Shown: positions 2,694 to 26,889 of the stretch, one piece after another
How the letters are laid out: every line of letters begins with the position of its first letter
How positions within the stretch are numbered: position 1 is the stretch's first letter
NCBI GenBank assembly: GCA_040391965.1
Contig: JBEBWV010000032.1
Coordinates: forward strand, 16,519 to 48,518
Origin: Achromobacter deleyi
GTDB lineage: Bacteria; Pseudomonadota; Gammaproteobacteria; Burkholderiales; Burkholderiaceae_B
Direction of reading: 5' to 3'
Length of the DNA: 32,000 bases
Position numbers and translations under genes: made by a program
The notes under the pieces: model-generated
Databases searched by the model: none
Seen by the model: the letters and a program-made list of their open reading frames with translations, nothing else
Told to the model about the DNA's origin: nothing

Positions 2694-4356
2694 CCAATGA
2701 ATAGATGGCCGGTGGCGCCAGGTCTTGACCTGGGTTCAGGGCCATCAGTGAAATAGCGTTAAACGCCGCCATGACCGGATCGATCTTGGCGGTGCCTGAG
2801 GCCTGCTTCGTAATTAGGATTGCGTTGCCGCGAGGTTCAACCTTGCAGTTCCCAACGCTCCAAGCCATGAGCGGCTGACCGCAATGCACCAACACGCCTT
2901 CGGCGAGCTTGCGCTCTGCTGTTTTGATTGCGCCCCCGAGCTTCCATCCTTGCGAGATCCCCAGGATTTTGTCGGCAGGTATGTCACGTTCAGCTAGCGC
3001 ATCCAAGATGCCGCCAAGGCCGGATGGGTCGACGCCGATCCTGTCTAACAGGCCGGTCTCCTCAACGCGGGCCACTATGTCGGCCACACCATCGGTGTCG
3101 TCACCGATACGGGCCACAAGCGACAAATCACCGTCGTTCGCAAAGTCGTGAAAACGTGCAGCCTCGGCCTTGCGGCGCTCAAGCACAGACGGGTGTGCCC
3201 AAGCGTGAGTCCAAAGAAGCCAACGCCGCGTGGTAGCACATCGGCCTAGGACGGCCAGCCCGAGCAAGTCGTCCAGCCCGCCTCCATCAATCCCGATGCA
3301 AATGACTTCTGAGCGTTCAAGTACGGACTCAAGGGTCAAGCCCTCCTCCGCCTGACGCTCCCAGTAGTCAGCGCCCGCCCAACGATCGGAACGTAAGGCC
3401 AGGCCGATTTCCACGTTCAGATGCTTGGCCATGAAACCCCGCACAGACTCTTCGCTTGTGTTCCCGGCCTTCTTGAACTCTCGTTCCAGATACTCTCGGT
3501 CTACCGAGTAACCCATGTTCGGGTTGACCATTGCGAAGTTGACAGGGTCTCGATGCCCACCGGCGGCGATCATCGCAGCAGGAAACTCATAGATGATGGG
3601 TACAAAGCTCGGATCATGAATGACGCCATCGCGCACGTCGCGGGCGTACTGCAATTTCTGCTTAAAGACGCCTGCCGGTGGATCATCAGATTGGGTTGTG
3701 AGATAAATCACGAAGCCCTCAGGACGCGACGCGAGACCGCCCATCGCTTCCCGCAGCATGTTTTCCGCATCAGGCCGTTTACCGAACAGCCAAAGCTCAT
3801 CGATGAGCGTACCGACGCCCTTTGTCCCCCCCACAGTACTGCTATCCGCAGCTAGCACCTGCAACGCGGCGCGTGTTTCGCGGTGCGTGATCGTGCGAAT
3901 GTGCGTCTGAACATGCATTAGAGCGTTCAGCTCTTCGTCCACATTCTCACTGCACATGTCGCGGGCTGGCGAATAGCTGTTGTCCGCGATCTTGATGGTT
4001 GGCGCCAGGATATTGAATGACGCCGACATACGCCAGTTAACCAAGATGGCGGTCAACATAATTCCTGCGGCGATTGTCGACTTCGAATTCTTTTTCGGAA
4101 TCAGTATGAACCACTCTCGAATCAGCCGGCGGCCGCTATCGGTGTCATACGCGCCAAAGATCGAGGCAACAATGTCAAATACCCATTGCGCGCATGACTC
4201 CCCGAAAGTTGGACTGCCCGGCGCATCAACGATGCGCAACGATTTGAATATGGCAACTGCCTGCGCTGCCGCCTCGGGGAAAATCGGCGGCGGAATGATC
4301 GAATCGCCGGCGCGCAACCGTTCCGCCCAGTCTGGGCAAGCGGTGGACCATTGCAT
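2686..4356 (-). CDS. terL: Terminase large subunit
   Basis: 556 aa. N-terminus MQWSTACPDWAERLRAGDSIIPPPIFPEAA is typical of Terminase_1-type TerL. Lies between TerS and the portal. Confidence 0.9.
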   Translation of the reverse strand: MQWSTACPDWAERLRAGDSIIPPPIFPEAAAQAVAIFKSLRIVDAPGSPTFGESCAQWVFDIVASIFGAYDTDSGRRLIREWFILIPKKNSKSTIAAGIMLTAILVNWRMSASFNILAPTIKIADNSYSPARDMCSENVDEELNALMHVQTHIRTITHRETRAALQVLAADSSTVGGTKGVGTLIDELWLFGKRPDAENMLREAMGGLASRPEGFVIYLTTQSDDPPAGVFKQKLQYARDVRDGVIHDPSFVPIIYEFPAAMIAAGGHRDPVNFAMVNPNMGYSVDREYLEREFKKAGNTSEESVRGFMAKHLNVEIGLALRSDRWAGADYWERQAEEGLTLESVLERSEVICIGIDGGGLDDLLGLAVLGRCATTRRWLLWTHAWAHPSVLERRKAEAARFHDFANDGDLSLVARIGDDTDGVADIVARVEETGLLDRIGVDPSGLGGILDALAERDIPADKILGISQGWKLGGAIKTAERKLAEGVLVHCGQPLMAWSVGNCKVEPRGNAILITKQASGTAKIDPVMAAFNAISLMALNPGQDLAPPAIYSLDD

Positions 4357-4359
4357 AAG

Positions 4360-4860
4360 TTATTTCCCGCCGTTGATCATGCGCAGCGGCGGCGCGGGTG
4401 GCGCAAATCTGCCTGTCGCAACCGCGCCAGCAGCTGCCTTGCCCGCTTCTTTTTTGCCTTGATCACCCAGTTTCTTGTGGGCGTAAGGCATCAACGATTT
4501 CGCTGCCTCAAGCCGCAGCTTGGGATCTTCTTCGATGTCATTCATGATCGCCACAAGCACGTCCTTGGGATCAGACGTCAAGCCAAGTGCGGCAAGACCG
4601 ACCTTAGGTAATTGCACCACCTCGCCACCAGATGACTCCGATTGCTCGGCAGTTGGCGGGGTGGGAGCGGCAGGCGGCAATTCCGGCGCTGCCTCCGTTT
4701 TGCGATCCAGCGCAGCCAACACATCGGGGTGCTTGGCGAGCCTTGACCCCGCCTGGGATGCTGTCGCTTCACTGTATCCAGCCGCGATTGCTGCGTCTTT
4801 GTTGGACGCACCTCGGGCCAAGGCTTCAACAAACTTGCGTTGTTTACTTGTTAAAGCCAT
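4360..4860 (-). CDS. terS: Terminase small subunit (Terminase_2-like HTH N-terminus)
   Basis: N-terminus MALTSKQRKFVEALARGASNKDAAIAAGYSEATASQAGSRL. Lies directly upstream of terL. Confidence 0.75.
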   Translation of the reverse strand: MALTSKQRKFVEALARGASNKDAAIAAGYSEATASQAGSRLAKHPDVLAALDRKTEAAPELPPAAPTPPTAEQSESSGGEVVQLPKVGLAALGLTSDPKDVLVAIMNDIEEDPKLRLEAAKSLMPYAHKKLGDQGKKEAGKAAAGAVATGRFAPPAPPLRMINGGK

Positions 4861-4917
4861 TAACAGATCCTGAAATCGGGGGTATTTTCTGCGCGTGCGG
4901 GAATAGTCGGTCTAGAG

Positions 4918-4957
4918 TCCCTGCCCCCTCCATTTTTAGACCCCCCCCTGCCCTCCC
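4918..4957. repeat. Two C-rich direct repeats (CCCTGCCC(CC)TCC) in the HNH-terS intergenic region; possible cos / terminase-binding region
   Basis: TCCCTGCCCCCTCC at 4918-4931 and CCCTGCCCTCCC at 4946-4957, separated by ATTTTTAGA. The position matches cos of HNH-dependent HK97-like packaging modules. Confidence 0.25.
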
Positions 4958-4998
4958 ACGATGGGGCTAGGGCTTGCGGAGAGGGCACCAGGGCGCGA

Positions 4999-5343
4999 TC
5001 ACATGCCAGATGATCGCTCTTCCTGCCTCTTCACCACGTCGTGGCAGGGCGCGCATAGAGGCTGCCAGTTGCTCTCGTCCCAGAATAGATTTTGGTCACC
5101 ACGATGGGGGATGATGTGATCGACCACCGACGCAAGCACGCCAACCAACCCATTGCGTTGGCAGTAGCAGCACATTGGATGCTCTCGCAGAAATAGTGCT
5201 CGCCCTTTCTGCCAGCGATATCCGTACCCTCGCTGCGTGCTGGTCTGCTTGTCAGCCCGCCAACTCACCGACTCAACGATGCGCCCGCGAGAGGGAGCCA
5301 TCTGAATGGACGGCTTCAATGTTGCAAGCTTCGGACGGCCCAT
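4999..5343 (-). CDS. Phage-associated HNH endonuclease (packaging accessory)
   Basis: Motifs CCYCQ...VDHIIPHRGDQNLFWDESNWQPLCAPCH. A TAATG overlap with the upstream gene favours the start at 5343; an alternative ATG is at 5352. Confidence 0.85.
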   Translation of the reverse strand: MGRPKLATLKPSIQMAPSRGRIVESVSWRADKQTSTQRGYGYRWQKGRALFLREHPMCCYCQRNGLVGVLASVVDHIIPHRGDQNLFWDESNWQPLCAPCHDVVKRQEERSSGM

Positions 5344-5597
5344 TACTGCCATTGCCTCACCAGCTCAATGTCTACGCGGCCATGCAACCGGCGCATAACC
5401 ACACTTTCGCGGCGTGCGTTCAACATGTACTCACCGTCTGGCCCTAACGCACTCAACAGCACAAAGCCGCGCCGAGTGTCCGCAGTGAAGCAGCGATGCT
5501 GCTCAATCCCATTCAAGCGCACGCGGACCAAGACATTGCGAGGCATCGCTTTGTATGCTCGATGGCCAGGGTCGCCCTTTCGTACTGATAGCCGCAT
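5343..5597 (-). CDS. Hypothetical phage protein (84 aa)
   Basis: ATG at 5595-5597 is preceded by GAGGAATAAACCA. Translationally coupled to the HNH gene. The longer ORF-track version (to 5714) has no RBS. Confidence 0.5.
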   Translation of the reverse strand: MRLSVRKGDPGHRAYKAMPRNVLVRVRLNGIEQHRCFTADTRRGFVLLSALGPDGEYMLNARRESVVMRRLHGRVDIELVRQWQ

Positions 5598-5759
5598 TGG
5601 TTTATTCCTCGTGTTGATCTTGCCGGGTGCCACCAACAGCACGCCGCCCGGCGGCGACGATCCCATACCCACGCACTCCCCAGCGCGTGGCCCTCGGTGG
5701 CAAAGGGGCAACAAAAAGCCCCGCGCGATTTCTCGGGCAGGGCAGAATATTTATCTCGA

Positions 5760-5796
5760 TGTGTACCGTACACACTAATAGTGTGTATAATACACA
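5760..5796 (+). promoter_or_regulatory. hicAB promoter/operator: two TGTGTA-N3-TACACA inverted repeats, the second containing TATAAT
   Basis: TGTGTACCGTACACA at 5760-5774 and TGTGTATAATACACA at 5782-5796. TATAAT at 5786-5791 lies 8 nt before the hicA ATG. Confidence 0.5.
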
Positions 5797-5798
5797 TC

Positions 5799-5981
5799 AT
5801 GGACAGCAAAGACTTAATCAAACAACTTGAGCGGGATGGTTGGGTTTTGCAAAACGTGAAGGGTTCGCACCACGTTTACCGCCATCCAAACAAACCGGGG
5901 CACATAAGCGTCCCACACCCTAAAAAGGATTTCGGCCCTGGCATAACCCACAAACTACTCAAGCAAGCTGGCCTTAAATGA
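5799..5981 (+). CDS. hicA: HicA family mRNA-interferase toxin
   Basis: 60 aa: MDSKDLIKQLERDGWVLQNVKGSHHVYRHPNKPGHISVPHPKKDFGPGITHKLLKQAGL, the canonical HicA pattern. Confidence 0.9.
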   Translation: MDSKDLIKQLERDGWVLQNVKGSHHVYRHPNKPGHISVPHPKKDFGPGITHKLLKQAGLK

Positions 5982-6024
5982 ACAACACCCCGGCAGTGCC
6001 GGGGATTCTCCTATCGAGGATCGT

Positions 6025-6417
6025 ATGAAATACCCTATCGCCATTGAACCTGGCAACGACACTCAAGCCTGGGGTGTTGTTGTCCCTGATCTGCCTGGCT
6101 GCTTCTCTGCCGCAGATGAAGGAATTGACCAGGCAATTGAGAATGCCAAGGAAGCAATTGAGGCTTGGATTGAGGCCGCAATGGATAGCGGCGATCCCGT
6201 TCCAGCACCCAGCAGTATCACGGCGCTGCAAGCGGATCCTGAGTACGCAGGATGGATCTGGGCGATTGTTGAGATCAACCCGGCTGTGCTGGATGAAACC
6301 ATCGAGCGAATCAACATCACGCTGCCGCGCCGAATCCTTGCCCGCCTTGACTCCAAGGCACGTGCCGCCGGTGAAAGCCGCTCCGGCTACATCGCCCACA
6401 TGGCACTCACTCGCTAG
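6025..6417 (+). CDS. hicB: HicB family antitoxin with C-terminal RHH (CopG-like) domain
   Basis: MKYPIAIEPGNDTQAWGVVVPDLPGCFSAADEGIDQAIENAKEAIEAWIE... and C-terminal INITLPRRILARLDSKA.... Confidence 0.9.
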   Translation: MKYPIAIEPGNDTQAWGVVVPDLPGCFSAADEGIDQAIENAKEAIEAWIEAAMDSGDPVPAPSSITALQADPEYAGWIWAIVEINPAVLDETIERINITLPRRILARLDSKARAAGESRSGYIAHMALTR

Positions 6418-6425
6418 CCTCAACC

Positions 6426-7103
6426 ATGCCCATTACCGACGATGTTGAAGAGAAACTGCGCCGTAACCTCATGGTGTTTTCAATAACCGTAATGATGGCC
6501 TGGTGGCTGGGGCTCAAAGTGCCCTCAATCGCAGCCCTGGTCGACCCCAAGCTTCTTTCAGTTGACGCTCCGAGCAGGATCTGGGGAGCGGCTGCGGCAC
6601 TTCTTATCTACTGCTTGCTTCGCTATCACTTTAGCGAGGGACGCGTAAAGCAATCAGAATTGATGCGAGAGGCAATTGCTGAGCGCAGGGAGCGACCAGT
6701 CAAGAGATACCTACAAAAGCTAGTAGCGAAAAAACACAACGACAGTAACCGCTCAACTTATGAGCACTCTAAGGCATTGAACCCTACCGCACCGACTCTC
6801 GAATCATCACCAGAGATCGTGCATTGGAGGACATTCAAAATTGTTCGATTCAATAGACTGGACACCATCTTCGGCACTTATCGATACAAGTCGGATCAAG
6901 ACACACCCGGTGATTTTGAGTATCGATACCCATACGAGGATTACTCAACAAGCTATCAATTGCCTAAAGCAAGGGCATGGGCTAGCGAAGGTTTTGCGCT
7001 CCTCACATCCACATTTGCTTCGCGGGGGGCGCTCGAAATTTACATGCCGTATTTACTTGCTATCTGCGCGTTGATCGTCAGCTTAAGTATGGCTTGGCAA
7101 TAA
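6426..7103 (+). CDS. Hypothetical membrane protein (2 N-terminal and 1 C-terminal predicted TM segments)
   Basis: 225 aa. Hydrophobic stretches FSITVMMAWWLGL, IWGAAAALLIYCLL and YLLAICALIVSLSMAW. Visibly AT-richer than the phage backbone. Confidence 0.6.
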   Translation: MPITDDVEEKLRRNLMVFSITVMMAWWLGLKVPSIAALVDPKLLSVDAPSRIWGAAAALLIYCLLRYHFSEGRVKQSELMREAIAERRERPVKRYLQKLVAKKHNDSNRSTYEHSKALNPTAPTLESSPEIVHWRTFKIVRFNRLDTIFGTYRYKSDQDTPGDFEYRYPYEDYSTSYQLPKARAWASEGFALLTSTFASRGALEIYMPYLLAICALIVSLSMAWQ

Positions 7104-7134
7104 CGGCAAAACTCCCATCACTCAAAGATGCAAA

Positions 7135-7167
7135 AAGCCCGCTCAATTTCTTGGCGGGCTTTTTTGT
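7135..7167 (+). terminator. Rho-independent terminator
   Basis: AGCCCGC-loop-GCGGGCT followed by TTTTTTG. Confidence 0.7.
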
Positions 7168-7393
7168 ACGCACTGATTCAAAGTGAATAAACTGGGCGTA
7201 ATTTACCATACGACTTAGAAAATCACAATTATGGAAATTTCCTGAGAAACGGTGCCGCGCATCTTCTAGTGCCTTGTTTCCATATTTCTTCCACCCGATA
7301 ATCGACCTACAAAAGAGCCAGAAAATTTTCCTCAATGGCATAATTCCATTCGCTCAGAATTCCGCTAGAGTTCACCCGGTAAGGAGTCAAACA

Positions 7394-8341
7394 TTGGCAA
7401 TCGTTGAATTATTTTCGAAACGTCAGAAGAGTTTGCGGGGTGATGTCCCCGACGTGTACAGCTACGACGAACTCCCACCAACGCTCCGGACGCAAATAAT
7501 CCATATCATGGGTGATGCGCTGGGCGGAGCACGCGAATATTACGGGGGTACCCCAAGAGTTGCTGAAGCGTACAAATTCATCGTGGATACGCTTTGCCGA
7601 GAATATGGCGTGTTTCATTTGCCCGGCACGCCAAATAACATCGGCGGGAATAGAGACAACTTCAAGGATTTAACGGCTTTCCTCCTTCACGAGATCGATA
7701 CGGAACGTACCCTAGACGCGATAGAACTCTCTTTTCTATCGATCAACGTAGCCACGATCAATTGGGATTATCTGCATCGCGCAAATTCTAAAGAGATCGC
7801 CAACGCGGCTATCAATGAATTGAATGCGCGATTCAAAGAGCATGCCATTGGATATCAATACGCCGATCGAAGAATCATTCGCATTGACTCGGAGTTGATA
7901 CACGCCGAAGTTGTAAAGCCCGCTTTGCGCTTACTAAATCAAAAGAACTATGCAGGTGCACAGCAAGAGTTTCTTAAGGCTCATGAACATTACCGGAAGG
8001 GTAACGCCAAGGAGGCTCTTAACGAGTGCCTTAAGTCGTTTGAGAGCTTAATGAAAGCTATTTGCGAAAAAAGGAAATGGATTTGCAAGCAACCACCTAC
8101 TGCAAGCAATCTGATTGATACGTGCCTACAGAACAAGCTTATTCCTGAGTTTTGGCAGCAGAACTTCACTTCGTTGCGCAGTTTGCTCACAAGCAGCATT
8201 CCCTCAGGCAGAAATAAATTGAGTGGGCACGGGCAAGGAACAACAACCACTGAAGTGCCGAACCATCTGGTTGCCTACATGATCCATATGACGGCTTCAA
8301 CCCTCGTCTTCCTAGCTGAAGCTGACGCGTCAGTACCTTAA
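7394..8341 (+). CDS. HEPN / Abi_C-type protein with AbiJ-NTD-like (STM4504/CBY_0614-like) N-terminus; candidate abortive-infection RNase
   Basis: TTG start at 7394 follows AAGGAG (7382-7387); the ORF-track start at 7274 has no RBS. N-terminus AIVELFSKRQKSLRGDVPDVYSYDELPPTLRTQIIHI. C-terminal R-x5-H motif GRNKLSGHG at 8210-8230. Confidence 0.65.
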   Translation: MAIVELFSKRQKSLRGDVPDVYSYDELPPTLRTQIIHIMGDALGGAREYYGGTPRVAEAYKFIVDTLCREYGVFHLPGTPNNIGGNRDNFKDLTAFLLHEIDTERTLDAIELSFLSINVATINWDYLHRANSKEIANAAINELNARFKEHAIGYQYADRRIIRIDSELIHAEVVKPALRLLNQKNYAGAQQEFLKAHEHYRKGNAKEALNECLKSFESLMKAICEKRKWICKQPPTASNLIDTCLQNKLIPEFWQQNFTSLRSLLTSSIPSGRNKLSGHGQGTTTTEVPNHLVAYMIHMTASTLVFLAEADASVP

Positions 8342-8403
8342 CGGGATTCCCCCCCCATGCCGTTTTTGGGAAATTCCCATTTAGGTGGTTTGGTGGCCTA
8401 TGA

Positions 8404-9051
8404 CTACGCGCAGATCCCTTTAGCTGACAGCATGTCAGTGATATGCGCCATAGCAATGGCCTCCTGTCCGATCTCGCCCCCCCCTCGAACTCCTTCCTTT
8501 TCTTGCCCGGTGCGAGACCCGCGCAACCAACGCACGATCATGGCTCGATGGTTAGAAGCTGTCTTTGCAGACACATCTGCCCGATCAGCTGCGCTGGACA
8601 GCACCACTTTCTTGCCAAAATAGCCTTCGATAATCGTGTCGCGCAGCACGCGTGCTGTCGGATGGGTCGACAAAGCCTGTGACGCAGCCAGATCGGAAAT
8701 GACCCTGATTGCTGCCATCCAACGCAGATCGTCGGTCACGCCTTCGCAGCACTTGCACCGGTTCGTCTTGGGGGCGAAGCGTGCGTAGAGGATGGCTTGA
8801 TGCAGTGGGGAGAGCGCATCCACGTTTACAAGGATCATCCCTGCTTGCGCTGCTCCATCGACACCGCCAAGCCCCTTGCCGCTTGACTTGATGGAGCCGC
8901 GTGCTGCACGGTTCATCGCCGGCACGTCATAGGCCTGGGCAGAATGGTTGTACGCGAACGTGAGCGCTGCGTGCGCATTGGAAAACAAAGGTTCGTGCAT
9001 GGCCGTCATAGGCACCTCTACTGAATTGATACGAAGCGCGGCGCCCATCAC
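8404..9051 (-). CDS. Hypothetical protein in the lambdoid Q position (possible late-gene regulator / antiterminator)
   Basis: 215 aa. ATGA-coupled to the upstream VRR-NUC gene and last gene of the early-right operon. Has a cysteine pair (CKCC). The function is assigned by position only. Confidence 0.4.
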   Translation of the reverse strand: MMGAALRINSVEVPMTAMHEPLFSNAHAALTFAYNHSAQAYDVPAMNRAARGSIKSSGKGLGGVDGAAQAGMILVNVDALSPLHQAILYARFAPKTNRCKCCEGVTDDLRWMAAIRVISDLAASQALSTHPTARVLRDTIIEGYFGKKVVLSSAADRADVSAKTASNHRAMIVRWLRGSRTGQEKEGVRGGGEIGQEAIAMAHITDMLSAKGICA

Positions 9052-9491
9052 ACCACCTCCGGGGAATACGTCACTTTCGGGTCTAGGTAATTGAGCAATG
9101 CCTCGCGCGCTTGGTCAAAGCTGTAACAGACCTCCACGCGATACCCTGCTTGCTTCAAGTAGTCCACCCAGTCTTTTTGCGTTTCGGACAGGCGCCCTGT
9201 CGCTGCCTTCATTTCTATCCAGAGCCCGGGGCAACCGAAGCGTGGCACGGGCAAGAACAGATCCAGCACGCCAGCCTTCACGCCCTGGCGCTTCAAGTTG
9301 GCGGCGACCAATACATGACGCTGCCCACCATTGGGAATATGGAACAGGCGAGCGAGTCCGGGATAGACCTTCGTCTGTCGCGCCGCCCATGTGATCACTT
9401 GCGCCTGGATAACGTCCTCGCTCGGGCCTGCTACTGCCACCTTCTTCGTAGCTGCACGGCGCGGTGCCTTGGTCCAACGTGCCATCGTCAT
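9048..9491 (-). CDS. VRR-NUC domain nuclease
   Basis: PD-(D/E)xK signature: HIPNGG...GVLDLFLPVP...LWIEMK...LSETQKDW. Confidence 0.85.
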   Translation of the reverse strand: MTMARWTKAPRRAATKKVAVAGPSEDVIQAQVITWAARQTKVYPGLARLFHIPNGGQRHVLVAANLKRQGVKAGVLDLFLPVPRFGCPGLWIEMKAATGRLSETQKDWVDYLKQAGYRVEVCYSFDQAREALLNYLDPKVTYSPEVV

Positions 9492-10267
9492 GCTGCGCGC
9501 TCCCGGTAGCTGGCCCAGTCGAACACCACCATGCGCCCCCCGCCCTCACGCATGCGGTCGACAACGCGGTCACCCAAGTATTCGGTCAGCCGGGGCTTTG
9601 CCAAGTTACTGATGAGGATGGTCGGGCGCATCCGGTTGTAGCGTTCGTTCATGATGTCGAACAGCAGCATCTTTTCAGCATCCGAGCCGTACTGACTGCC
9701 AATCTCGTCCAGCACCAGCAGATCGGGGCCGGTGAATCGGGCGATTGCGGCCGACTCCGTTGCCGCGCTGTCTTTGCGGTACGTTTCCTTGATCGAGCGC
9801 ATGGCATCGAGCAGCACCGCGAATCGTGCTGAGTAGCCTTGAGCCAAGACCGAGTGCATAGCACTGATGGCCAAATGCGTCTTACCCGTGCCCACACCAC
9901 CACACAGGATCAGGCCATTGCCACCGTCACGCGCAGAGGTAAAACTCTCGCCGTAGGCTTGCACCGTGCGCAACGCCTTGGCCGCATCGTCGGTTGGGGG
10001 CACATACGTTTCGAAGCGGGCATCGAAGTAGCGTTCAGGGATTTCGGCACGGCGCATGTGGTGCTCACGTGCCGCCATCATTTCCTGACGCAGCTGCTCA
10101 GCCTTCATCTGGCGACCAACGCACACCGGGCAGTCAGACCAACCCACCGGCGTTTTCATGGAAGGAAACTCACCGTGCTCGTCACACGAGCGCGATTCGG
10201 TGGCGAAATTAAAAACGCCCGTCATCACCGACCCCAGCGTGGTAGTCCTGCTTTGCGAAATTTCCAT
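9488..10267 (-). CDS. DnaC/IstB-like AAA+ replicative helicase loader
   Basis: Walker A LILCGGVGTGKTHLA and Walker B LLVLDEIG. ATG at 10267 follows AGGAG. Alternative starts are at 10225 and 10372. Confidence 0.85.
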   Translation of the reverse strand: MEISQSRTTTLGSVMTGVFNFATESRSCDEHGEFPSMKTPVGWSDCPVCVGRQMKAEQLRQEMMAAREHHMRRAEIPERYFDARFETYVPPTDDAAKALRTVQAYGESFTSARDGGNGLILCGGVGTGKTHLAISAMHSVLAQGYSARFAVLLDAMRSIKETYRKDSAATESAAIARFTGPDLLVLDEIGSQYGSDAEKMLLFDIMNERYNRMRPTILISNLAKPRLTEYLGDRVVDRMREGGGRMVVFDWASYRERAA

Positions 10268-11138
10268 GAATCGGTGCTCCTGTGGTCTTTGCTGCCCGGC
10301 TTGTCCGGAATGCTTGGGGGTTGGTTGCGTCTTTCTGTGCACGGCCCAGCCATGACACGATGAACCGGGCAATGCCTCGGCGTGTCGGGCGTTTGGGGAG
10401 GTTGGCGTTCAGCCAAACCCGCATGCGGGAAAACTCGCCGTGTGCGTCAACGGCGGGAAAGGCTGCACTCCACTCTGCAACCTGCTGGGGTTCTGCACCG
10501 AACTCGGAGCCGTCGACAAGCGGAAGCAAGGCGATGGGATTGGGAGTTTGGTTTTGGTCTTCGGGGTTGGCCGAAGGCGAATTCAGGTCATCGGAAGAAT
10601 CTGCGCCAGCAGATTCATCTTTGTTTTGTTGGTTGTCTTTTGGAAGGTTGTCTTTTGTGTGTACCGTTTTCGTACTATCGACCTGTACCGAATCCGTACT
10701 AGCAACAACACCATTTCCGTACACCTGTACCGTTTTCGTACATGTACCGATTTGGGACACCTGTACAGATTTCGTACTAGATGGATGTACAGATTCCGTA
10801 CTAGCACCCCAACGCGAATAATCTTTGTTGATGCCCAAGATGCAGCCGTACTTTCCCGGGCGCTTGTGGATCACACCCAGGGCCGCCAATTCATTCAGGG
10901 CCGTGGTGATATGGGGGCGTGCCATCTTGCCCAGGAGCGCCCCCAACTGCGATGCAGACAGGTCGTCCTCTTTCTTGCCATAGCCGTATGTCTTACGGAC
11001 TACGGCCATAGCGACCTTGTATTGCTTACCGCTAAGCGGGAATGCCAATAAAGCGTCGTACAGCTCATTGGCAATACGAACGTGGCCGTCTTCCAGCTGG
11101 GGGGATTTCTGAGGCATTTTCAACACCACCGCGCTCAT
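10209..11138 (-). CDS. Replication initiator, lambda O-like (Phage_rep_O N-terminal domain)
   Basis: N-terminus GHVRIANELYDALLAFPLSGKQYKVAMAVVRKTYGYGKKEDDLSASQL. The repetitive middle part (TKSVQV, TKTVQV, TDSVQV, TKTVHT) is encoded by the iterons. Confidence 0.85.
   Translation of the reverse strand: MSAVVLKMPQKSPQLEDGHVRIANELYDALLAFPLSGKQYKVAMAVVRKTYGYGKKEDDLSASQLGALLGKMARPHITTALNELAALGVIHKRPGKYGCILGINKDYSRWGASTESVHPSSTKSVQVSQIGTCTKTVQVYGNGVVASTDSVQVDSTKTVHTKDNLPKDNQQNKDESAGADSSDDLNSPSANPEDQNQTPNPIALLPLVDGSEFGAEPQQVAEWSAAFPAVDAHGEFSRMRVWLNANLPKRPTRRGIARFIVSWLGRAQKDATNPQAFRTSRAAKTTGAPIHGNFAKQDYHAGVGDDGRF
10659..10803. repeat. Phage origin of replication: six iterons GTACMGWWTYCGTAC inside the O-like gene, next to a T-rich tract
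   Basis: Copies start at 10661, 10685, 10727, 10744 (degenerate), 10763 and 10787. Each is a GTAC...GTAC dyad. A T-rich stretch at 10615-10660 is adjacent. Confidence 0.75.
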
Positions 11139-12898: not shown

Positions 12899-12966
12899 TG
12901 AACCATAGTTCATCCAAAAGAACAACTATAGTTCTTCGCGAATAGGCTATCTTTTAAACTATGGTT
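12899..12966. promoter_or_regulatory. OR-like operator cluster and divergent cro / cI promoters (three AACYATRGTT cores)
   Basis: Cores at 12901-12910 (AACCATAGTT), 12924-12933 (AACTATAGTT, a perfect palindrome) and 12957-12966 (AACTATGGTT, overlapping the cI ATG). Confidence 0.6.
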
Positions 12967-14010
12967 GAATATCGAGACCGCCTCATAGAGGCAATGAAAT
13001 ACGCAGGGATCTCTGCCACGCAATTGGCGGCGAGCCTTAGCACGTCCTATCAAGCTGTGAAGAAGGTAATTGACGGAAAGTCCACCGCCTTCAATGCGGC
13101 CAATAACGCTTTGGCTGCTCGTGAGATGGGAGTGTCAAGCGATTGGCTGGCGCTAGGCGTCGGCATGATGGTGCCCACGGAGGGCTTCCAAATTCCTGAT
13201 GCGCCTTCGCTATGGCCCTTCCCCTCAATTACTGAGGCCGAGATATGTTCTCTGCCGCAAGACAAGTTGACGCGTCTAGAAGGTGCAATCCTGCTCACCC
13301 TTGGTCAGATGGGTGTGAGATCTACGGGTGCCACGCCCTACACGCCTACCTCTACGTCAAAGATGGGCGGCGTAGTGGATATGGACGCTGCCACCGATGA
13401 GTTTCCAATGCGGATGGGTGGACTGCCCGCCGCCCCCTGGGAAGGCGGCAAAACCACTTTTCAAGCGGAGCGCGAGAGTCGACTTCGGATCAGTACTGAG
13501 ACCGGCGTGGTGGCCAACGTCGGGCCTGGTGATCCGCATGCGGCAAATGATAAGTTTGAGAAAGTGCCGGAAATGGCCGACGTACGCTTGGCTGCTGGTG
13601 ATGGCATCGAGAACCACGTCGAAGAGCAAACGGGTGTAATCCAGTTCCGCAGGTCTTTCCTGCGTGCCGTCGGCGCAGAAAGCGGTAAGGCCCGCGTTGT
13701 GTACGCGAAAGGAGACAGCATGGAGCCGGTTATTCGCGATGGAGCTGCGCTTCTCGTCGTCCCGAACGAAAACCTTACTGTGCGCGACCTGGCTGGCGGT
13801 GGCGTCTATGCCATCAACTATGACGGCAAGATGATCGTGAAAACAGTGGCGCGCGACAATCTCACGCAGCGCTGGGTTGCTCGGTCATTCAATCCTGCAT
13901 ACCACGACATTCCGTTAGAGAACGGGTCACCCGTGCGCGTCCTGGGCCAAGTGGTGTGGGCTGGCACCCGACTGCGCGACGATGAGGCTGGGCAGTGGGT
14001 GCGCTCGTGA
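12961..14010 (+). CDS. cI: CI-type prophage repressor (XRE HTH + S24 LexA-like autopeptidase), unusually long at 349 aa
   Basis: N-terminal HTH ISATQLAASLSTSYQAVKKVIDG. Putative Ala-Gly cleavage site VRLAAGDG. Ser/Lys dyad motifs GDSMEP and MIVKTV. Confidence 0.9.
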   Translation: MVEYRDRLIEAMKYAGISATQLAASLSTSYQAVKKVIDGKSTAFNAANNALAAREMGVSSDWLALGVGMMVPTEGFQIPDAPSLWPFPSITEAEICSLPQDKLTRLEGAILLTLGQMGVRSTGATPYTPTSTSKMGGVVDMDAATDEFPMRMGGLPAAPWEGGKTTFQAERESRLRISTETGVVANVGPGDPHAANDKFEKVPEMADVRLAAGDGIENHVEEQTGVIQFRRSFLRAVGAESGKARVVYAKGDSMEPVIRDGAALLVVPNENLTVRDLAGGGVYAINYDGKMIVKTVARDNLTQRWVARSFNPAYHDIPLENGSPVRVLGQVVWAGTRLRDDEAGQWVRS

Positions 14011-17050: not shown

Positions 17051-17950
17051 ATGTTCAAGAACATCAAGGCCTATCGGCTTACCGATAGCGCCCCTTTCCC
17101 CACGCCTGATTGGCTTGCAGTCGCCCTGGCACCGCATGCTTTCAAGTCCGGTGGCGCGCTTGAAATGCAGTCGATTGGCTGGGTAGCACCGCGTGAAAGC
17201 GGCGGCCTGGTGCACGCTGTTGGCGGCCAGATCTTGCTCACGCTGCGCATGGAGTCTCGCCTTTTGCCTGCGTCGGTGGTCAACCAAGCCGCCCGAGTCC
17301 GAGCCGCCGAAATCGAAGAGCAGCAAGGCTACAAGCCGGGCCGCAAGCAGATGAAGGAAATCAAGGAGCGCGCCACCGACGAGCTCATACCCAAGTCGCA
17401 TGTGGTGTACCGAGATACGCAGGTTTGGATTGACCCGATCAATCATTGGCTGGTGGTCAACGCAGCAAGCGATGCACGGGCCGACGAAGTGATTGGGCTG
17501 TTGGCCAAGTCGGTTGAACAGTTGCCGCTTGAGAATCTGTATGTGGCCCAGTCACCGGCTGCAGCAATGACGTCCTGGCTGGCTGAAGACGAAGCGCCCA
17601 GCAACTTCACCATCGACCAGGACACGGAATTGCGTGCCAGTGGCGAAAGCCGCGCCGCCATTCGCTACGTCAAACACTCCATTGATGTTGATGACGTGCG
17701 GCGGCATATCCAGTCAGGTAAGCAGTGCACACGACTTGCGCTGACCTGGGCAGACCGAATCTCTTTCGTGCTGACGGAAGGCCTAGACCTCAAGCGCGTC
17801 ACGCCGCTGGATGCGCTGAAGGAAGGCACCGACACCATGATGCAAAACGACGACGAGAAATTCGATTCGGACTTTGCCCTAATGACTGGCGAACTCAACA
17901 AGTTGCTCGTTGAGCTGGTCTATGCGCTAGGCGGTGAAAAGCGTCTCTGA
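17051..17950 (+). CDS. rdgC: Recombination-associated protein RdgC
   Basis: 299 aa. MFKNIKAYRL..., ...LALTWADRISFVLTEGLDLKRV..., ...FDSDFALMTGELNKLLVELVYALGGE are collinear with E. coli RdgC. Confidence 0.9.
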   Translation: MFKNIKAYRLTDSAPFPTPDWLAVALAPHAFKSGGALEMQSIGWVAPRESGGLVHAVGGQILLTLRMESRLLPASVVNQAARVRAAEIEEQQGYKPGRKQMKEIKERATDELIPKSHVVYRDTQVWIDPINHWLVVNAASDARADEVIGLLAKSVEQLPLENLYVAQSPAAAMTSWLAEDEAPSNFTIDQDTELRASGESRAAIRYVKHSIDVDDVRRHIQSGKQCTRLALTWADRISFVLTEGLDLKRVTPLDALKEGTDTMMQNDDEKFDSDFALMTGELNKLLVELVYALGGEKRL

Positions 17951-22088: not shown

Positions 22089-22337
22089 ATGAGCGAAGGA
22101 ACATTTCTATCTGAGGACGAGGTTGGCCAGCTCACCGGCGTCAAAACCGGCCGGAAGGTCAACGGCGTAAGCGTGCGCCGCGAGCAGCTTCAGGCCAACT
22201 GGCTTCGCAGCACTGGCATTCCCTTCTACATTAACGCACGTGGCCGACCAATCATTGTGCGCGCGAACCTCACTGGCAGACCTTCGGGAAGTGAATTGAA
22301 AGCGCCGTGGCAACCGCGTGCCATTCGAGCAGCTTAG
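22089..22337 (+). CDS. DUF4224-like protein; putative excisionase / recombination directionality factor
   Basis: FLSEDEVGQLTGVKTGRK...QLQANWLRSTGIPFYINARGRPIIVR. Lies immediately upstream of the integrase. Confidence 0.6.
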   Translation: MSEGTFLSEDEVGQLTGVKTGRKVNGVSVRREQLQANWLRSTGIPFYINARGRPIIVRANLTGRPSGSELKAPWQPRAIRAA

Positions 22338-22342
22338 AGACC

Positions 22343-23422
22343 ATGGGACGGAAACCTTACAAGCACACCAATCTGCCGGCACGCATGCGCGCGCGCACTC
22401 GACACGGTGGCAAAACCTATTACTACTACGACACGGGAGTGCGCCCCCGCAAGGAAATCCCTCTCGGGCCCGATTTCGTCGAAGCGGTGAAGAAATGGGC
22501 AGAGCTTGAACGCGTCGATGCACCAAGCGGCGTTGCCGTTGCCACCTTCCGCTATGCGGCAGAACAATACCTTCGCGTAGTCATCCCTACCAAGGCGCCA
22601 AGAACGCAGGCAGACAACATAAAGGAGCTCGCTGTTCTATATGAGTACTTCGATGCGCCCCCAGCGCCTCTAGACGAAATACGCCCACAACACATCCGCC
22701 TTTATATGACCTGGCGCGCTGAAAAAGCGCGGGCCTGGTACGTCCAAAAAGGCCGCGAAGTGCCCGCGTCTGCCGGTCACGTCCGCGCGAATCGCGAGAT
22801 CGCGCTGTTCAGCCATATCTTCAATTTTTCACGGGAAAACGGCATTACCGACGCGCCAAACCCCTGCGCTGGCGTTCGCAAAAACCGGGAGACTGGCCGG
22901 CAGATTTACGTCGAGGATGATGCGTTTAAGCTCGTTTGGGATGCAGCTGATCAGCCCACCCGGGACGCCATGGACCTTGCCTATTTAACAGGCCAACGTC
23001 CTGCCGATACGCTGAAATTTGATGAACTCGACATTAGAGAGGAAATGCTCCACGTCGCCCAAGGCAAAACAGGGAAGAAGCTGCGCATCAGCATCACTGG
23101 CGACTTGGCGGTGGTGATAACTAGAATTCGAGCCCGAAAAGCGGGATATCAATCTGCATCAACCGCACTGGTCGTTAATGAGAGTGGTCAGCGTATGACG
23201 TATGAGGCATTGCGCCAGCGATTCCACGCGGCCCGAGAAAAAGCTGGTGTCGCAATGGAGGGCTTTCAATTCCGCGATCTACGCGCCAAAGCTGGGACAG
23301 ATAAGGCAGACTCGGCAGGTGACATACGACAAGCACAGCGCCAGCTCGGACATAAATCCGTCCAAATGACTGAGCATTATGTCCGCGAACGCAAGGGTGA
23401 CAAGGTCGATCCAACGCGGTAA
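22343..23422 (+). CDS. int: Tyrosine-type site-specific integrase
   Basis: MGRKPYKHTNLPARMRARTRHGGKTYYYYD.... C-terminal catalytic region ...FRDLRAKAGTD...LGHKSVQMTEHYVR. Confidence 0.9.
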   Translation: MGRKPYKHTNLPARMRARTRHGGKTYYYYDTGVRPRKEIPLGPDFVEAVKKWAELERVDAPSGVAVATFRYAAEQYLRVVIPTKAPRTQADNIKELAVLYEYFDAPPAPLDEIRPQHIRLYMTWRAEKARAWYVQKGREVPASAGHVRANREIALFSHIFNFSRENGITDAPNPCAGVRKNRETGRQIYVEDDAFKLVWDAADQPTRDAMDLAYLTGQRPADTLKFDELDIREEMLHVAQGKTGKKLRISITGDLAVVITRIRARKAGYQSASTALVVNESGQRMTYEALRQRFHAAREKAGVAMEGFQFRDLRAKAGTDKADSAGDIRQAQRQLGHKSVQMTEHYVRERKGDKVDPTR

Positions 23423-23538
23423 TTTCTGCTCCGCAATCGCATAGCGGGCTAACGCCCATGCGGCTCTTAAGCGCGCATTTATTGAACAATTGCGGAGCGG
23501 GAACTGGCATCAGTACTTTGATTTTCCTGGCGTTTCCC

Positions 23539-23588
23539 GTGGAATCATAATCCGCAGGTCCCCTGTTCGAATCAGGGATGCGCCACCA
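23539..23588 (+). other. 3' fragment of a tRNA-Met(CAT)-type gene (anticodon arm to CCA) = prophage att core
   Basis: Anticodon arm GTGGA-ATCATAA-TCCGC, variable loop AGGTC, T arm CCCTG-TTCGAAT-CAGGG, acceptor 3' strand ATGCGCC, then A-CCA. No matching 5' acceptor strand or D arm upstream. Confidence 0.6.
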
Positions 23589-23615
23589 AAGAATTCTCCT
23601 GTAAATCAGGGCCTT

Positions 23616-23648
23616 AACGCCACCCTCTGAGGTGGCGTTTTTGTTTTC
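23616..23648 (+). terminator. Rho-independent terminator (native tRNA terminator)
   Basis: AACGCCACC-CTCTGA-GGTGGCGTT followed by TTTGTTTT. Confidence 0.7.
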
Positions 23649-23727
23649 TATGGCAAATCTGTCAACGAAGTGTCAACGCAGCTTAAGGGGCCGTTACCGC
23701 GCACTTAAGTGGATAGCAGAGCGTAGA

Positions 23728-24708: not shown

Positions 24709-25037
24709 GCAAAAGGGGCTGAAATGTTAATAAATCAGGACCGCGCTGAGCTAGTCAAATAGCCATGCGGCAGGACCACTTCTTCGCTTCATCCCATACA
24801 TACTCGCATAAAATTTGCGTCCGGGTAGCGAAGGACTTTTCTTACCTGAAGCTGATCAATGACAGCTCCGTTCAAATCTCAATGGCGGGTTTCTACTAAG
24901 TCCTTGATTTCTGGCAGCGTCGAGTTCCAAACTCAAGGACATTCGACAGTAAAATCGAGAGCATTAGGCAATGAAGACGTCAATGCCACTGGCACTGCCA
25001 GCCAACGCAGCGCGCAGCATCAATTAAGGAGATTTGA

Positions 25038-25271
25038 GTGCATGGATTTTGGAGCACCATATTCATAATTATTTTGGTACTAGCGGCGTTTGTGGCGCTG
25101 TATGAGCCTTATCCACCAGGCGGAAGGCGCCGAAAAAAAAGCTCGAAGGATCGGGAAACACTTTCTGAAATCGACAGCGGAGCTCCGACCAAGGCGCAGC
25201 CCAATCCGCAAGAAACCAACGATACCCTGAAGCGAACCCCAAAGCGCCGCCAGCGGTTCAACGCACACTGA
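25038..25271 (+). CDS. Small membrane protein (77 aa; one TM, then a basic/proline-rich tail)
   Basis: GTG start 6 nt after AAGGAG. TM segment FWSTIFIIILVLAAFVALY. Confidence 0.45.
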   Translation: MHGFWSTIFIIILVLAAFVALYEPYPPGGRRRKKSSKDRETLSEIDSGAPTKAQPNPQETNDTLKRTPKRRQRFNAH

Positions 25272-25506
25272 CATTACTCGTTGGAAAAGAGGTTATTGCT
25301 TATATGAGCCTCATCGCTTTAGAAGCCCGTTACATAGCTTAAATGCCATCATCACTGCAATAGGTCAGCAAGCGCTACTGGAGCAAATTTCCCAGCTTAC
25401 CCTTCGCGTCACACCCCAGAACGTCGCAGCCCGGCCAACATAGCCTCAACCCCTATGTCATACGGATTTTTGGTTGAGGCCTGTCTTTCGTTGCCAATGA
25501 CCCTGG

Positions 25507-26865: not shown

Positions 26866-26889
26866 ACTCAGCCCCTATCGCCAGAGTGA

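What the first reader, a model, noticed from the sequence alone, without database searches (positions are those of the whole stretch)
6426..8341. AT-rich cargo pair: 3-TM protein plus a HEPN (R-x5-H) / AbiJ-NTD-like protein, a candidate uncharacterised abortive-infection module
Two plus-strand genes sit where a lambdoid phage normally carries lysis genes or morons, between the Q-position gene and the packaging module.
- They are visibly AT-richer than the backbone.
- They run opposite to every flanking phage gene.
- The second product ends in GRNKLSGHG (8210-8230), a HEPN-type R-x4-6-H motif.
- It starts with FSKRQKSLRGDVPDVYSYDELPPTLRTQIIHI. From memory this resembles AbiJ N-terminal-domain / STM4504-CBY_0614-type proteins.
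- The first product has three predicted TM helices and no motif I recognise.
- A terminator (7135-7167) separates the genes, so they may be one module or two independent cargo genes.
Basis: partly seen in the sequence, partly recalled or inferred. Interest (0 to 1): 0.7.

Follow-up and report, generated by a model that had tools for sequence, protein, structure and literature searches.

The report
Stacked prophage cargo genes, not a pair
The two genes are real, AT-rich prophage cargo, but they are unrelated neighbours: the second belongs to an already named family of predicted phage-defence RNases (AbiJ-like, HEPN), and the first belongs to an unnamed membrane-protein family that other phages carry without it.

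Summary

**Gene B (7394-8341, TTG start).**
- It is a clear member of the NCBIfam STM4504/CBY_0614 family (380 bits against a cut-off of 150).
- It has Pfam AbiJ_NTD4 plus DUF7014.
- The motif R273-N-x4-H279 is invariant in 60 of 60 aligned homologues.
- The best compact Foldseek matches are HEPN domains, although none is statistically significant.
- The architecture was described in 2013 as an AbiJ-type HEPN protein. Relatives in public records are already labelled AbiJ or Abi_C.
- It is most likely a self-contained, single-protein abortive-infection RNase.

**Gene A (6426-7103).**
- It is a real membrane protein with three hydrophobic segments, from an unnamed, divergent family (156 representatives at E <= 0.001).
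- Other phages carry it antisense, next to a homologue of the flanking gene at 8404-9051.

**Linkage.**
- Homologues of A and B never co-localise: 0 of 92 gene-B loci and 0 of 30 gene-A loci.
- A strong terminator separates the two genes.

The island is therefore three independent cargo units stacked in a variable prophage slot. Gene B is ordinary; the gene A family is a modest open question.

The parts
5758..5798 (.). 20-nt inverted repeat (GATGTGTACCGTACACACTA / TAGTGTGTATAATACACATC) that contains a TATAAT and abuts the hicA ATG. It is the likely promoter and HicB operator of the plus-strand unit.
   Evidence: the repeat finder I1, 85% complementary, 1 nt between the arms; sequence read. The function is inferred.
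5799..5981 (+). hicA toxin gene (60 aa)
   Evidence: Pfam HicA_toxin, 70.5 bits against a cut-off of 27. G+C 0.486.
6025..6417 (+). hicB antitoxin gene (130 aa; HicB-like domain plus a ribbon-helix-helix tail)
   Evidence: Pfam HicB_lk_antitox 171.7 bits, with RHH_5/RHH_1 at the C-terminus.
6426..7103 (+). Gene A: a 225-aa inner-membrane protein of an unnamed family. It has an N-terminal DDxxxKxRRN motif, TM1, TM2 ending in RYHFS, a long charged helix (71-111), a variable small alpha/beta region and a C-terminal PYxLA transmembrane helix. It starts 8 nt after the hicB stop.
   Evidence: Exhaustive HMMER: 156 representatives at E <= 1e-3 and 15 at E <= 1e-10. Alignments A2/A3. AlphaFold pLDDT 81.5, pTM 0.72. 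No convincing Pfam, NCBIfam or PADLOC match and no PDB sequence or fold match; the only PHROG link is phrog_31431 (unknown function) for 6 of 41 members.
7132..7165 (+). Intrinsic terminator after gene A. The stem is GCCCGC/GCGGGC, with an A-run on one side and a T6 run on the other, so it could act in both directions.
   Evidence: RNA fold -20.8 kcal/mol, z -4.51, 0 of 200 shuffles fold as well.
7166..7393 (+). AT-rich stretch upstream of gene B (G+C 0.428 over the whole 7104-7393 intergenic region). It is presumed to carry gene B's own promoter. Shine-Dalgarno AAGGAG at 7381-7386.
   Evidence: Composition; sequence. No consensus sigma-70 site was found by the simple scan, so the promoter is inferred only.
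7394..8341 (+). Gene B: a 315-aa STM4504/CBY_0614 family protein (TTG start)
   Evidence: NF046078 379.6 bits against 150. PHROG 20794 E 9e-104. More than 3541 homologues, all starting at this position.
7406..7921 (+). AbiJ_NTD4 domain (residues 5-176), the predicted sensor/regulatory domain
   Evidence: Pfam PF18863, 67.9 bits against a cut-off of 34. The domain was defined on CBY_0614 in PMC3710099.
7937..8332 (+). DUF7014 domain (residues 182-313), a helical, HEPN-like predicted RNase domain
   Evidence: Pfam PF22809 141.6 bits. AlphaFold helices 184-201, 205-227, 237-268 and 290-309. Best compact Foldseek hits are HEPN domains: 1o3u, 2hsb, HepT, 1ufb, sacsin.
8210..8230 (+). R273-N-K-L-S-G-H279, the putative HEPN catalytic motif (R-phi-x4-H)
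   Evidence: R273, N274, G278, H279, G280, Q281 and G282 are invariant in 60 of 60 homologues.
8404..9051 (-). Phage backbone gene orf215 (function unknown, no family hit). In other phages its homologues are the conserved convergent neighbour of gene-A homologues.
   Evidence: 42-47% identity to the gene directly downstream of gene-A homologues in 11 phage loci, and 31-36% in three more. No Pfam, NCBIfam or PHROG hit.

Best explanation
Bases 5758-8341 form a plus-strand, lower-G+C accessory island. It sits in a variable slot of an HK97-like/lambdoid prophage, between the end of the replication-side genes (orf215) and the HNH-TerS-TerL packaging genes. It holds three independent cargo units, not one module.

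**Unit 1: hicA-hicB.** This is a type II toxin-antitoxin pair with a palindromic operator/promoter.

**Unit 2: gene A.**
- It is an N-in inner-membrane protein of an unnamed family.
- It is probably read from the hicAB promoter, because the gap is 8 nt with no terminator before it and a strong terminator after it.
- In other phages the same family sits alone, antisense, between an orf215 homologue and the terminase genes.
- I infer that it is a lysogen-expressed moron acting at the membrane. Superinfection exclusion or a membrane-level defence is most likely. This step is a guess (about 0.35).

**Unit 3: gene B.**
- It is its own transcription unit and appears to have been inserted between gene A's terminator and orf215.
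- It is a single-polypeptide AbiJ-type defence protein.
- The N-terminal AbiJ_NTD4 domain is inferred to hold the C-terminal HEPN-like RNase off until it meets a phage component.
- The HEPN domains of a dimer would then pair their R273/H279 motifs and cut RNA. That would stop translation and abort the infection.

**Shown:** family membership, domain order, motif invariance, lack of any conserved partner, and cargo status.

**Inferred:** RNase activity, the trigger, and the defence phenotype.
For: **Gene B**
- NF046078 379.6 bits against 150.
- AbiJ_NTD4 plus DUF7014 in all 60 of 60 relatives.
- RN-x4-H invariant.
- Among the Foldseek hits, those with probability >= 0.4 and TM-score >= 0.44 on the target are HEPN-fold proteins: 1o3u prob 0.98 and TMt 0.64, 2hsb 0.90, HepT, 1ufb, sacsin.
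- Weak sub-threshold hits to other HEPN Pfam families: PF05168 in 6 of 60, Ymh in 3 of 60, and Abi_C for the isolated domain.
- The database's precomputed annotation gives PF14355 Abi_C for every homologue.
- PMC3710099 defines AbiJ-NTD4 on CBY_0614 fused to an AbiJ HEPN domain and proposes the sensor-plus-toxin model.
- SadR, an Abi_C protein, loses both RNase and defence activity when its R, N or H is mutated (PMC13590631).
- HepS shows that a prophage-borne solo HEPN protein can both sense and abort infection (PMC13043305).

**Gene B stands alone**
- No neighbour family is found in more than 5 of 84 loci.
- It sits alone in Ramlibacter and on plasmids.
- Relatives occur on 340 plasmids and in phages, annotated as AbiJ.

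**Not a pair**
- 0 of 92 and 0 of 30 co-occurrence.
- A terminator lies between the genes.

**Gene A**
- The family is real.
- It recurs as an antisense moron next to orf215 homologues, including in Achromobacter phage CF418P1.

**The slot is variable**
- Its length is 0.8-3.5 kb among relatives, with different contents.
Against: - No Foldseek match reaches significance (best E 0.85). The loop that carries the motif is modelled at pLDDT below 50.
- In the local Pfam copy, Abi_C scores only 13.8 bits against a cut-off of 24, and DUF7014 carries no functional label.
- No solved structure is detectable by sequence.
- In the literature searched, I found no experimental test of any AbiJ_NTD4-type protein.
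- The PADLOC match is weak: PDC-S32, E 3e-7.
- Only 4 of 150 immediate neighbours of relatives are clear defence ATPases, and there was no control set.
- For gene A there is no functional evidence at all. Several family members sit among housekeeping genes.
- Co-transcription with hicAB is inferred from spacing only.
Confidence: 0.75

Rival explanations
1. One reading: gene A and gene B form a two-gene abortive-infection module. The HEPN protein would sense or execute, and the membrane protein would be a second effector or an anchor.
For: The two genes are adjacent, co-oriented, both AT-rich and both cargo. Membrane effectors combined with nuclease effectors are known in other defence systems (general knowledge).
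Against: The gene-A profile finds nothing within +/-5 kb of 92 gene-B relatives. The gene-B profile finds nothing in 30 gene-A loci. A -20.8 kcal/mol terminator and 290 bp separate the genes. In other phages gene A abuts orf215 directly, so gene B looks like an insertion. No neighbour of gene-B relatives recurs.
Confidence: 0.04
2. Gene B is mainly an addiction or anti-MGE element, a cis-regulated toxin that stabilises the prophage or plasmid or restricts incoming plasmids, rather than a phage-triggered Abi.
For: Relatives lie on 340 plasmids, 300 of them conjugative. SadR, an Abi_C relative, also restricts plasmid transformation (PMC13590631). In the window it sits next to hicAB, a classic stabilisation module.
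Against: There is no separate antitoxin gene and no conserved neighbour. Many chromosomal copies lie among housekeeping genes, where there is nothing to stabilise. The characterised HEPN solo proteins (HepS, SadR) are phage-triggered or phage-protective.
Confidence: 0.15
3. Gene A is a lysis-cassette protein (a holin or holin-like membrane protein) of the prophage, as its position before the packaging genes might suggest.
For: It has three hydrophobic helices and sits in the slot where lambdoid phages carry lysis genes. Some relatives of this phage have forward-strand membrane-protein ORFs in the slot (read by eye).
Against: It runs antisense to the late genes, both here and in 12 or more other phages. 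At 225 aa with a roughly 110-residue cytoplasmic region it is unlike the typical holin size (general knowledge). No endolysin is adjacent. Family members also occur among chromosomal housekeeping genes and on Burkholderia plasmids. Only one of 41 members has a holin Pfam hit, and that is at E 0.11.
Confidence: 0.05
4. Gene A is a CBASS-type S-2TM-beta / Cap15-like membrane-disrupting effector that has lost its cyclase partner.
For: UniRef names one distant family member (P0292, Burkholderia glumae plasmid) 'SMODS-associating 2TM beta-strand rich effector'. One of 41 members weakly hits a PADLOC '2TM effector' model at E 0.032.
Against: No Pfam hit for any of 41 + 6 members at permissive thresholds. 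The AlphaFold model is mostly helical with only three short strands. No Foldseek match in the PDB, which is expected to hold Cap15 (from memory; I did not check the library), exceeds probability 0.07. The only recurring neighbours in 32 loci are phage backbone genes such as orf215, terminase and portal.
Confidence: 0.04

Closest known systems
STM4504/CBY_0614 family (NCBIfam NF046078; AbiJ-NTD4 + AbiJ-type HEPN of Anantharaman et al. 2013, PMC3710099)
   Same: There is a full-length match (281 of 281 profile positions, 379.6 bits). The domain order, length (about 311-315 aa) and invariant RNxxxGHGQG motif are the same. It occurs as a solo gene on chromosomes, plasmids and phages.
   Different: Nothing is structurally different. 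This copy is 70% identical to its nearest relative and sits in a prophage moron slot. In the literature searched I found no experimental test of the family.
Lactococcus AbiJ (Abi-859) and S. aureus SadR (Abi_C proteins)
   Same: These are single-protein systems with a C-terminal HEPN-type domain. The R-phi-x(3-5)-H motif, most often with a five-residue spacer class, is required for RNase and defence activity in SadR.
   Different: The N-terminal domain is different: NTD4 here, and only 3 of the 2,815 Abi_C proteins surveyed had it. The local Pfam Abi_C model does not reach its threshold (13.8 against 24 bits); the C-terminal domain is captured by DUF7014 instead. The motif is RNKLSGH here and RNEYGDAH in SadR. 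The trigger is unknown.
HepS of Salmonella prophage Gifsy-1 (PMC13043305)
   Same: It is a prophage-encoded, partner-less HEPN protein in an accessory slot of a lambdoid prophage. It is inactive by default, senses the phage itself and aborts infection. It is the best working analogy for how gene B may act.
   Different: HepS has fewer than 250 aa, is a bare HEPN domain without AbiJ_NTD4, and carries its motif at R100-H105. No sequence relation was detected here. Its tail-tip trigger and tRNA anticodon targets cannot be assumed for gene B.
HicAB type II toxin-antitoxin systems
   Same: The upstream genes match HicA_toxin and HicB_lk_antitox well above threshold, and a palindromic operator-like repeat lies at the promoter.
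   Different: A third, unrelated membrane-protein gene follows hicB after 8 nt, before the terminator. That arrangement is not seen in the other 30 gene-A loci.
Prophage morons / superinfection-exclusion membrane proteins (for example P22 SieA/SieB, T4 Imm; from general knowledge)
   Same: Gene A is a small inner-membrane protein. It runs antisense to the phage late genes, has lower G+C, ends in its own terminator and recurs in the same slot of several phages.
   Different: No similarity to any named family was detected. An exclusion function is a guess.

Membership tests
STM4504/CBY_0614 family (NF046078) | Whole-protein HMM score above the curated cut-off, over the full profile length | tested here: met
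   379.6 bits against 150; profile positions 2-281 of 281.
STM4504/CBY_0614 family (NF046078) | N-terminal AbiJ_NTD4 domain followed by the C-terminal helical domain (DUF7014) | tested here: met
   PF18863 67.9 bits (cut-off 34) at residues 5-176. PF22809 141.6 bits (cut-off 27) at residues 182-313. Both are present in 60 of 60 relatives.
HEPN superfamily (RNase) | R-x4-6-H motif with a polar residue after R, conserved across the family, ahead of the last helix | tested here: met
   R273-N-KLSG-H279 is invariant in 60 of 60 and lies before helix 290-309. The bare pattern itself is not significant: 4 occurrences against 1.8 expected.
HEPN superfamily (RNase) | Four-helix up-and-down bundle that superimposes on solved HEPN domains | tested here: inconclusive
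   The best compact Foldseek matches are HEPN domains: 1o3u prob 0.98 and TMt 0.64; 2hsb; HepT 7bxo/6m6u; 1ufb; 3o10. All have E >= 0.85, the full-length model was used, and the motif loop has pLDDT below 50.
HEPN superfamily (RNase) | Above-threshold match to a HEPN-clan sequence model (Abi_C, HEPN, Ymh and others) | tested here: inconclusive
   Local Pfam gives Abi_C 13.8 bits against 24 (domain-only query), PF05168 in 6 of 60 at E >= 0.059, and Ymh in 3 of 60 at E >= 0.016. The database's precomputed annotation lists PF14355 (version .13) for every homologue.
HEPN superfamily (RNase) | Metal-independent RNase activity that depends on the R and H residues | not testable with these tools
   This needs biochemistry. 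It has been shown only for relatives of other subfamilies: SadR and HepS.
AbiJ defence system | Confers phage resistance by abortive infection | not testable with these tools
   I found no experiment on an NTD4-type protein in the literature search. Deposited annotations as 'AbiJ' are by similarity only.
   0 of 92 gene-B loci contain a gene-A relative, and 0 of 30 gene-A loci contain a gene-B relative, within +/-5-6 kb.
   A strong intrinsic-terminator hairpin and a 290-bp AT-rich spacer lie between the genes, and gene B has its own Shine-Dalgarno sequence. This rests on sequence only; there are no transcript data.
CBASS S-2TM-beta / Cap15-like effectors (considered for gene A) | Match to the family model, a beta-barrel C-terminal domain, and an adjacent CD-NTase | tested here: not met
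   No Pfam or PADLOC match. The model is mostly helical. There is no structural match. The only recurring neighbours are phage backbone genes, not a cyclase-like partner.
Holins (considered for gene A) | Small membrane protein co-oriented with the late/lysis genes and next to an endolysin | tested here: not met
   It runs antisense to the late genes here and in other phages, is 225 aa long, has no adjacent endolysin, and also occurs outside phages.
HicAB type II TA (upstream genes) | HicA toxin and HicB antitoxin domains in adjacent co-oriented genes | tested here: met
   HicA_toxin 70.5 bits and HicB_lk_antitox 171.7 bits, both against a cut-off of 27.

The most novel reading that the evidence does not exclude
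The gene A family could be a previously undescribed class of phage-borne membrane proteins. It has roughly 156 or more diverged clusters and no Pfam or NCBIfam model; only 6 of 41 members weakly hit a PHROG of unknown function. Its membrane core is conserved (DDxxxKxRRN-TM1, TM2-RYHFS, PYxLA-TM3) and its cytoplasmic middle is variable. The family would act in superinfection exclusion or as a membrane-level abortive effector, and it travels with the orf215-type phage gene across different packaging modules. In this prophage it would be expressed under HicB control, so that a toxin-antitoxin promoter gates a membrane defence gene.
Probability: 0.2. Interest if true: 0.55.

Novelty: new member of a known kind. 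Interest (0 to 1): 0.3.

Why it matters
**Gene B.** Little changes. It adds one more prophage-borne copy of a named, widespread (more than 3,500 clusters) but experimentally untested AbiJ-NTD4/HEPN family. The useful points:
- The family is a clean single-gene candidate for testing.
- Abi_C-based surveys seem to under-count it: only 3 NTD4 proteins appeared among the 2,815 Abi_C proteins in PMC13590631. A likely reason is that its C-terminal domain scores as DUF7014 rather than Abi_C.

**The island.** It shows how independent defence or addiction genes (hicAB, a membrane moron, an AbiJ-like gene) stack in one variable prophage slot. Adjacency there can look like an operon when it is not.

**Gene A.** The family is the only truly open item. 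It is an unnamed, structurally confident membrane-protein family that recurs antisense beside the terminase genes of Burkholderiales-type phages, including a cultured Achromobacter phage. It would therefore be easy to test for exclusion or defence.

Tried and rejected
- **Gene A as an ORFan or spurious ORF.** The word-indexed search found only the protein itself. The exhaustive HMMER search then found a family, so this reading was rejected.
- **Gene A as S-2TM-beta/Cap15.** This followed a UniRef name. It was rejected by Pfam and PADLOC scans of 41 + 6 members and by the fold.
- **Fold searches of the gene A model.** Neither the PDB nor viral BFVD gave a match with probability above 0.08.
- **Sequence searches of gene B against the PDB.** Both the single sequence and the profile found nothing relevant.
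- **Nearest phage genomes.** A megablast of 4300-10400 against deposited phages found nothing.
- **Source contig.** Looking up P0001/P0002 and their cluster members gave no record, accession or name, so the host organism remains unidentified.
- **A conserved partner of gene B.** Neighbour clustering found none. A PADLOC scan of 150 immediate neighbours gave only 4 ATPase-type defence hits, with no control set.
- **A hicAB association of gene A elsewhere.** None was found.
- **Direct repeats bounding the island.** Only short matches of chance size were found.
- **Other scans.** The Rfam and tRNA scans of the window were empty. A viral scan with the divergent alignment A2 failed for lack of conserved stretches and was repeated with A3. 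A search for orf215 relatives in viral contigs with exact peptide patterns found nothing; they were later found by tblastn in loci fetched through TerL and gene A.
Full report
**1. What is there**

The window carries a prophage.
- The integrase is at 22307-23422, an S24 repressor at 12961-14010 and RdgC at 17051-17950.
- On the minus strand lie RepO (10209-11138), a DnaC-like loader (9488-10372), a VRR-NUC-like gene (9048-9491) and an unnamed orf215 (8404-9051).
- After the region in question come orf123 (5343-5714), HNH (4999-5352), TerS, TerL, portal and a ClpP-type protease.
- Between orf215 and orf123 lie four plus-strand genes, not two: hicA (5799-5981), hicB (6025-6417), gene A (6426-7103) and gene B (ORF 7274-8341).
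- G+C is 0.486 (hicA), 0.573 (hicB), 0.494 (gene A), 0.428 (intergenic) and 0.475 (gene B). The flanking phage genes are 0.58-0.60.
The hicAB pair was missed.
- The true start of gene B is the TTG at 7394, 7 nt after AAGGAG. This is where every homologue begins.

**2. Gene B**

- It scores 379.6 bits (cut-off 150) over the whole NCBIfam model STM4504/CBY_0614.
- It has Pfam AbiJ_NTD4 (residues 5-176) and DUF7014 (residues 182-313).
- It matches PHROG 20794 (unknown function) end to end.
- More than 3,541 clusters of homologues exist, in many phyla.
- Relatives occur on 340 plasmids, 300 of them conjugative, and in phage records. Those records name them 'putative abortive infection protein AbiJ' or 'Abortive infection C-terminus'.
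- Anantharaman et al. (PMC3710099) defined AbiJ-NTD4 on CBY_0614 itself, fused to an AbiJ-family HEPN domain. They proposed that such N-terminal domains sense phage components and restrain the HEPN toxin.

*Is the C-terminal domain a HEPN domain?*
- The bare pattern R-x4-6-H is uninformative: it occurs 4 times, against 1.8 expected in shuffles.
- R273-N-x4-H279 is invariant in 60 of 60 relatives, has the polar residue after R, and lies between the third and last helices of a helical bundle.
- Foldseek against the PDB gave no significant E-value. Among its hits, those with appreciable probability and target TM-score are HEPN-fold proteins: TM0613, AF_0298, HepT toxins, TT1696 and sacsin.
- The local Pfam Abi_C model is below threshold (13.8 against 24 bits). 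A few relatives touch the HEPN and Ymh models weakly.
- The database's precomputed annotation lists Abi_C (a newer model version) for all homologues.
- I rate the HEPN assignment as well supported but not proven.

*Function by analogy.*
- SadR, an Abi_C protein, is an ssRNA RNase. Mutating its R, N or H abolishes both RNase and defence activity (PMC13590631).
- HepS shows that a partner-less prophage HEPN protein can both sense and abort infection (PMC13043305).
- I found no experimental test of an NTD4-type protein in the literature searched.

**3. Gene A**

- The word-indexed search found only the protein itself.
- The exhaustive HMMER search found 156 representatives at E <= 1e-3 and 15 at E <= 1e-10, mostly 210-250 aa and often aligned end to end.
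- The family shares several features:
  - an N-terminal DDxxxKxRRN motif running into TM1;
  - a second helix ending in R(Y/F)HFS;
  - a variable middle;
  - a C-terminal PYxLA helix.
- This confirms ATG 6426 as the start.
- AlphaFold gives pLDDT 81.5 and pTM 0.72: helices 3-27 and 49-68, a long charged helix 71-111, three short strands, and helices 181-198 and 200-224.
- The K+R-rich segment after TM2 (12 K+R) suggests an N-in topology with a cytoplasmic middle region (inference).
- No convincing Pfam, NCBIfam or PADLOC match exists for gene A or its relatives. The only PHROG link is phrog_31431 (unknown function), hit by 6 of 41 members.
- There is no structural match either.
- A UniRef label on one distant member ('S-2TM-beta effector') was not borne out.

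**4. Are A and B a module? No.**

- The family-A profile hits none of the 92 loci that hold a gene-B relative. The family-B profile, HicA and HicB hit none of the 30 loci that hold a gene-A relative.
- Around gene-B relatives, no neighbour family occurs in more than 5 of 84 loci, and those five are syntenic Pseudomonas genomes.
- Around gene-A relatives, the only recurrent neighbours are phage backbone genes.
- In 14 phage loci, including the cultured Achromobacter phage CF418P1, the gene directly downstream and convergent is a homologue of orf215. Identity is 42-47% in 11 loci and 31-36% in three.
- In many of these loci, and clearly in L103 and CF418P1, the terminase genes lie on the other side of gene A, on the opposite strand.
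- In the window, the 1.3 kb between gene A and orf215 is filled by gene B and its AT-rich leader. Gene B therefore looks like a later insertion beside an older gene A-orf215 arrangement (inference).
- Among phages with a related TerL, the distance from orf215 to HNH/TerS ranges from about 0.8 to 3.5 kb, with different contents. None of these slots holds hicAB, gene A or gene B. The slot is a cargo hot spot.

**5. Transcription units (inferred from sequence only)**

- A 20-nt inverted repeat containing TATAAT abuts the hicA ATG.
- The hicB stop and the gene A start are 8 nt apart.
- A hairpin of -20.8 kcal/mol with an A-run on one side and a T-run on the other follows gene A.
- Gene B has its own Shine-Dalgarno sequence and 230 bp of 43% G+C DNA upstream.
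- The likely units are therefore hicA-hicB-gene A, and gene B alone.
- The simple promoter scan found no consensus site.

**6. Verdict**

- Gene B is a new member of a known, named, computationally predicted defence family. It is ordinary, but it is a clean single-gene candidate for experiment.
- The proposed two-gene module is not supported.
- The gene A family is unnamed and recurrent in phages, and its role is unknown. My best guess, with low confidence, is a lysogen-expressed membrane protein for exclusion or defence.
- Overall interest is modest.

Noticed in passing
window 5758-6417: A complete hicA/hicB toxin-antitoxin pair sits on the same strand directly upstream of the finding. A 20-nt inverted repeat with a TATAAT abuts the hicA ATG, which may mean a leaderless or very short-leader mRNA.
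   Followed up: partly
window 8404-9051 (-); L103 5767-6396; L204 5905-6591; L111, L114-L120, L122: The unnamed phage gene orf215 and gene-A homologues form a conserved convergent pair. The pair occurs in phages with different packaging modules: P22-type portal and terminase in L103 and, by ORF sizes, the other loci of its group, against HK97-type HNH-TerS-TerL here. In CF418P1 a tRNA-Val lies between the two genes.
   Followed up: partly
L161 7094-7643 (viral contig IMGVR_UViG_2900127139_000002): In the closest phage with the same orf215...HNH slot, two small antisense genes directly upstream of HNH look, by eye, like a BrnT/BrnA toxin-antitoxin pair. A Dam-like methyltransferase and a RusA-like gene fill the rest of the slot. 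No HMM was run on them.
   Followed up: no
window 23500-32000: G+C drops from 0.57 to 0.51 just beyond the integrase (22307-23422), which probably marks the prophage end. No tRNA gene is present. The first gene outside the prophage (23728-24708, minus strand) is a DUF4917 protein. The remaining ORFs up to 32000 were not examined.
   Followed up: no
gene B residues 163-170 and 32-37 (window 7880-7903, 7487-7504): Two further R-x-H pairs are almost invariant in the family. R163-x6-H170 ('RIDSELIH') is conserved in 58 of 60 (R) and 60 of 60 (H). R32-x4-H37 is conserved in 56 and 55 of 60. Both lie in or at the edge of the AbiJ_NTD4 domain. Their meaning is unknown.
   Followed up: no
annotation of gene B relatives: The protein database's precomputed Pfam annotation gives Abi_C (PF14355.13) for all relatives. 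The local Pfam copy (PF14355.11) gives only 13.8 bits and assigns DUF7014 instead. A 2026 survey found only 3 AbiJ-NTD4 proteins among 2,815 Abi_C proteins. Abi_C-based censuses may therefore miss this large family.
   Followed up: partly
L037, L057, L058, L066 upstream of the gene B relative; 4 of 150 neighbours in alignment A4: A few gene-B relatives lie beside defence-type genes. One is a protein of about 1,150 aa whose N-terminus looks like a type IIG restriction-modification or BREX-like enzyme (by eye). Others are OLD/ABC-ATPase genes matching PADLOC PDC-M07A / HEC-01A / AriA at E down to 1e-62.
   Followed up: partly
L093-L095 (Burkholderia glumae plasmids) 4091-7667: A gene-A family member sits between a DUF3701/phage-integrase gene and a MazE/PIN toxin-antitoxin pair. 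This is a second case of this family lying next to a TA module, although the TA type differs from the one in the window.
   Followed up: no
window 8367-8379: A perfect 13-nt palindrome, TGGGAAATTCCCA, lies in the 62-bp gap between the gene B stop and the orf215 stop. No terminator-like T-run follows it on either strand.
   Followed up: no
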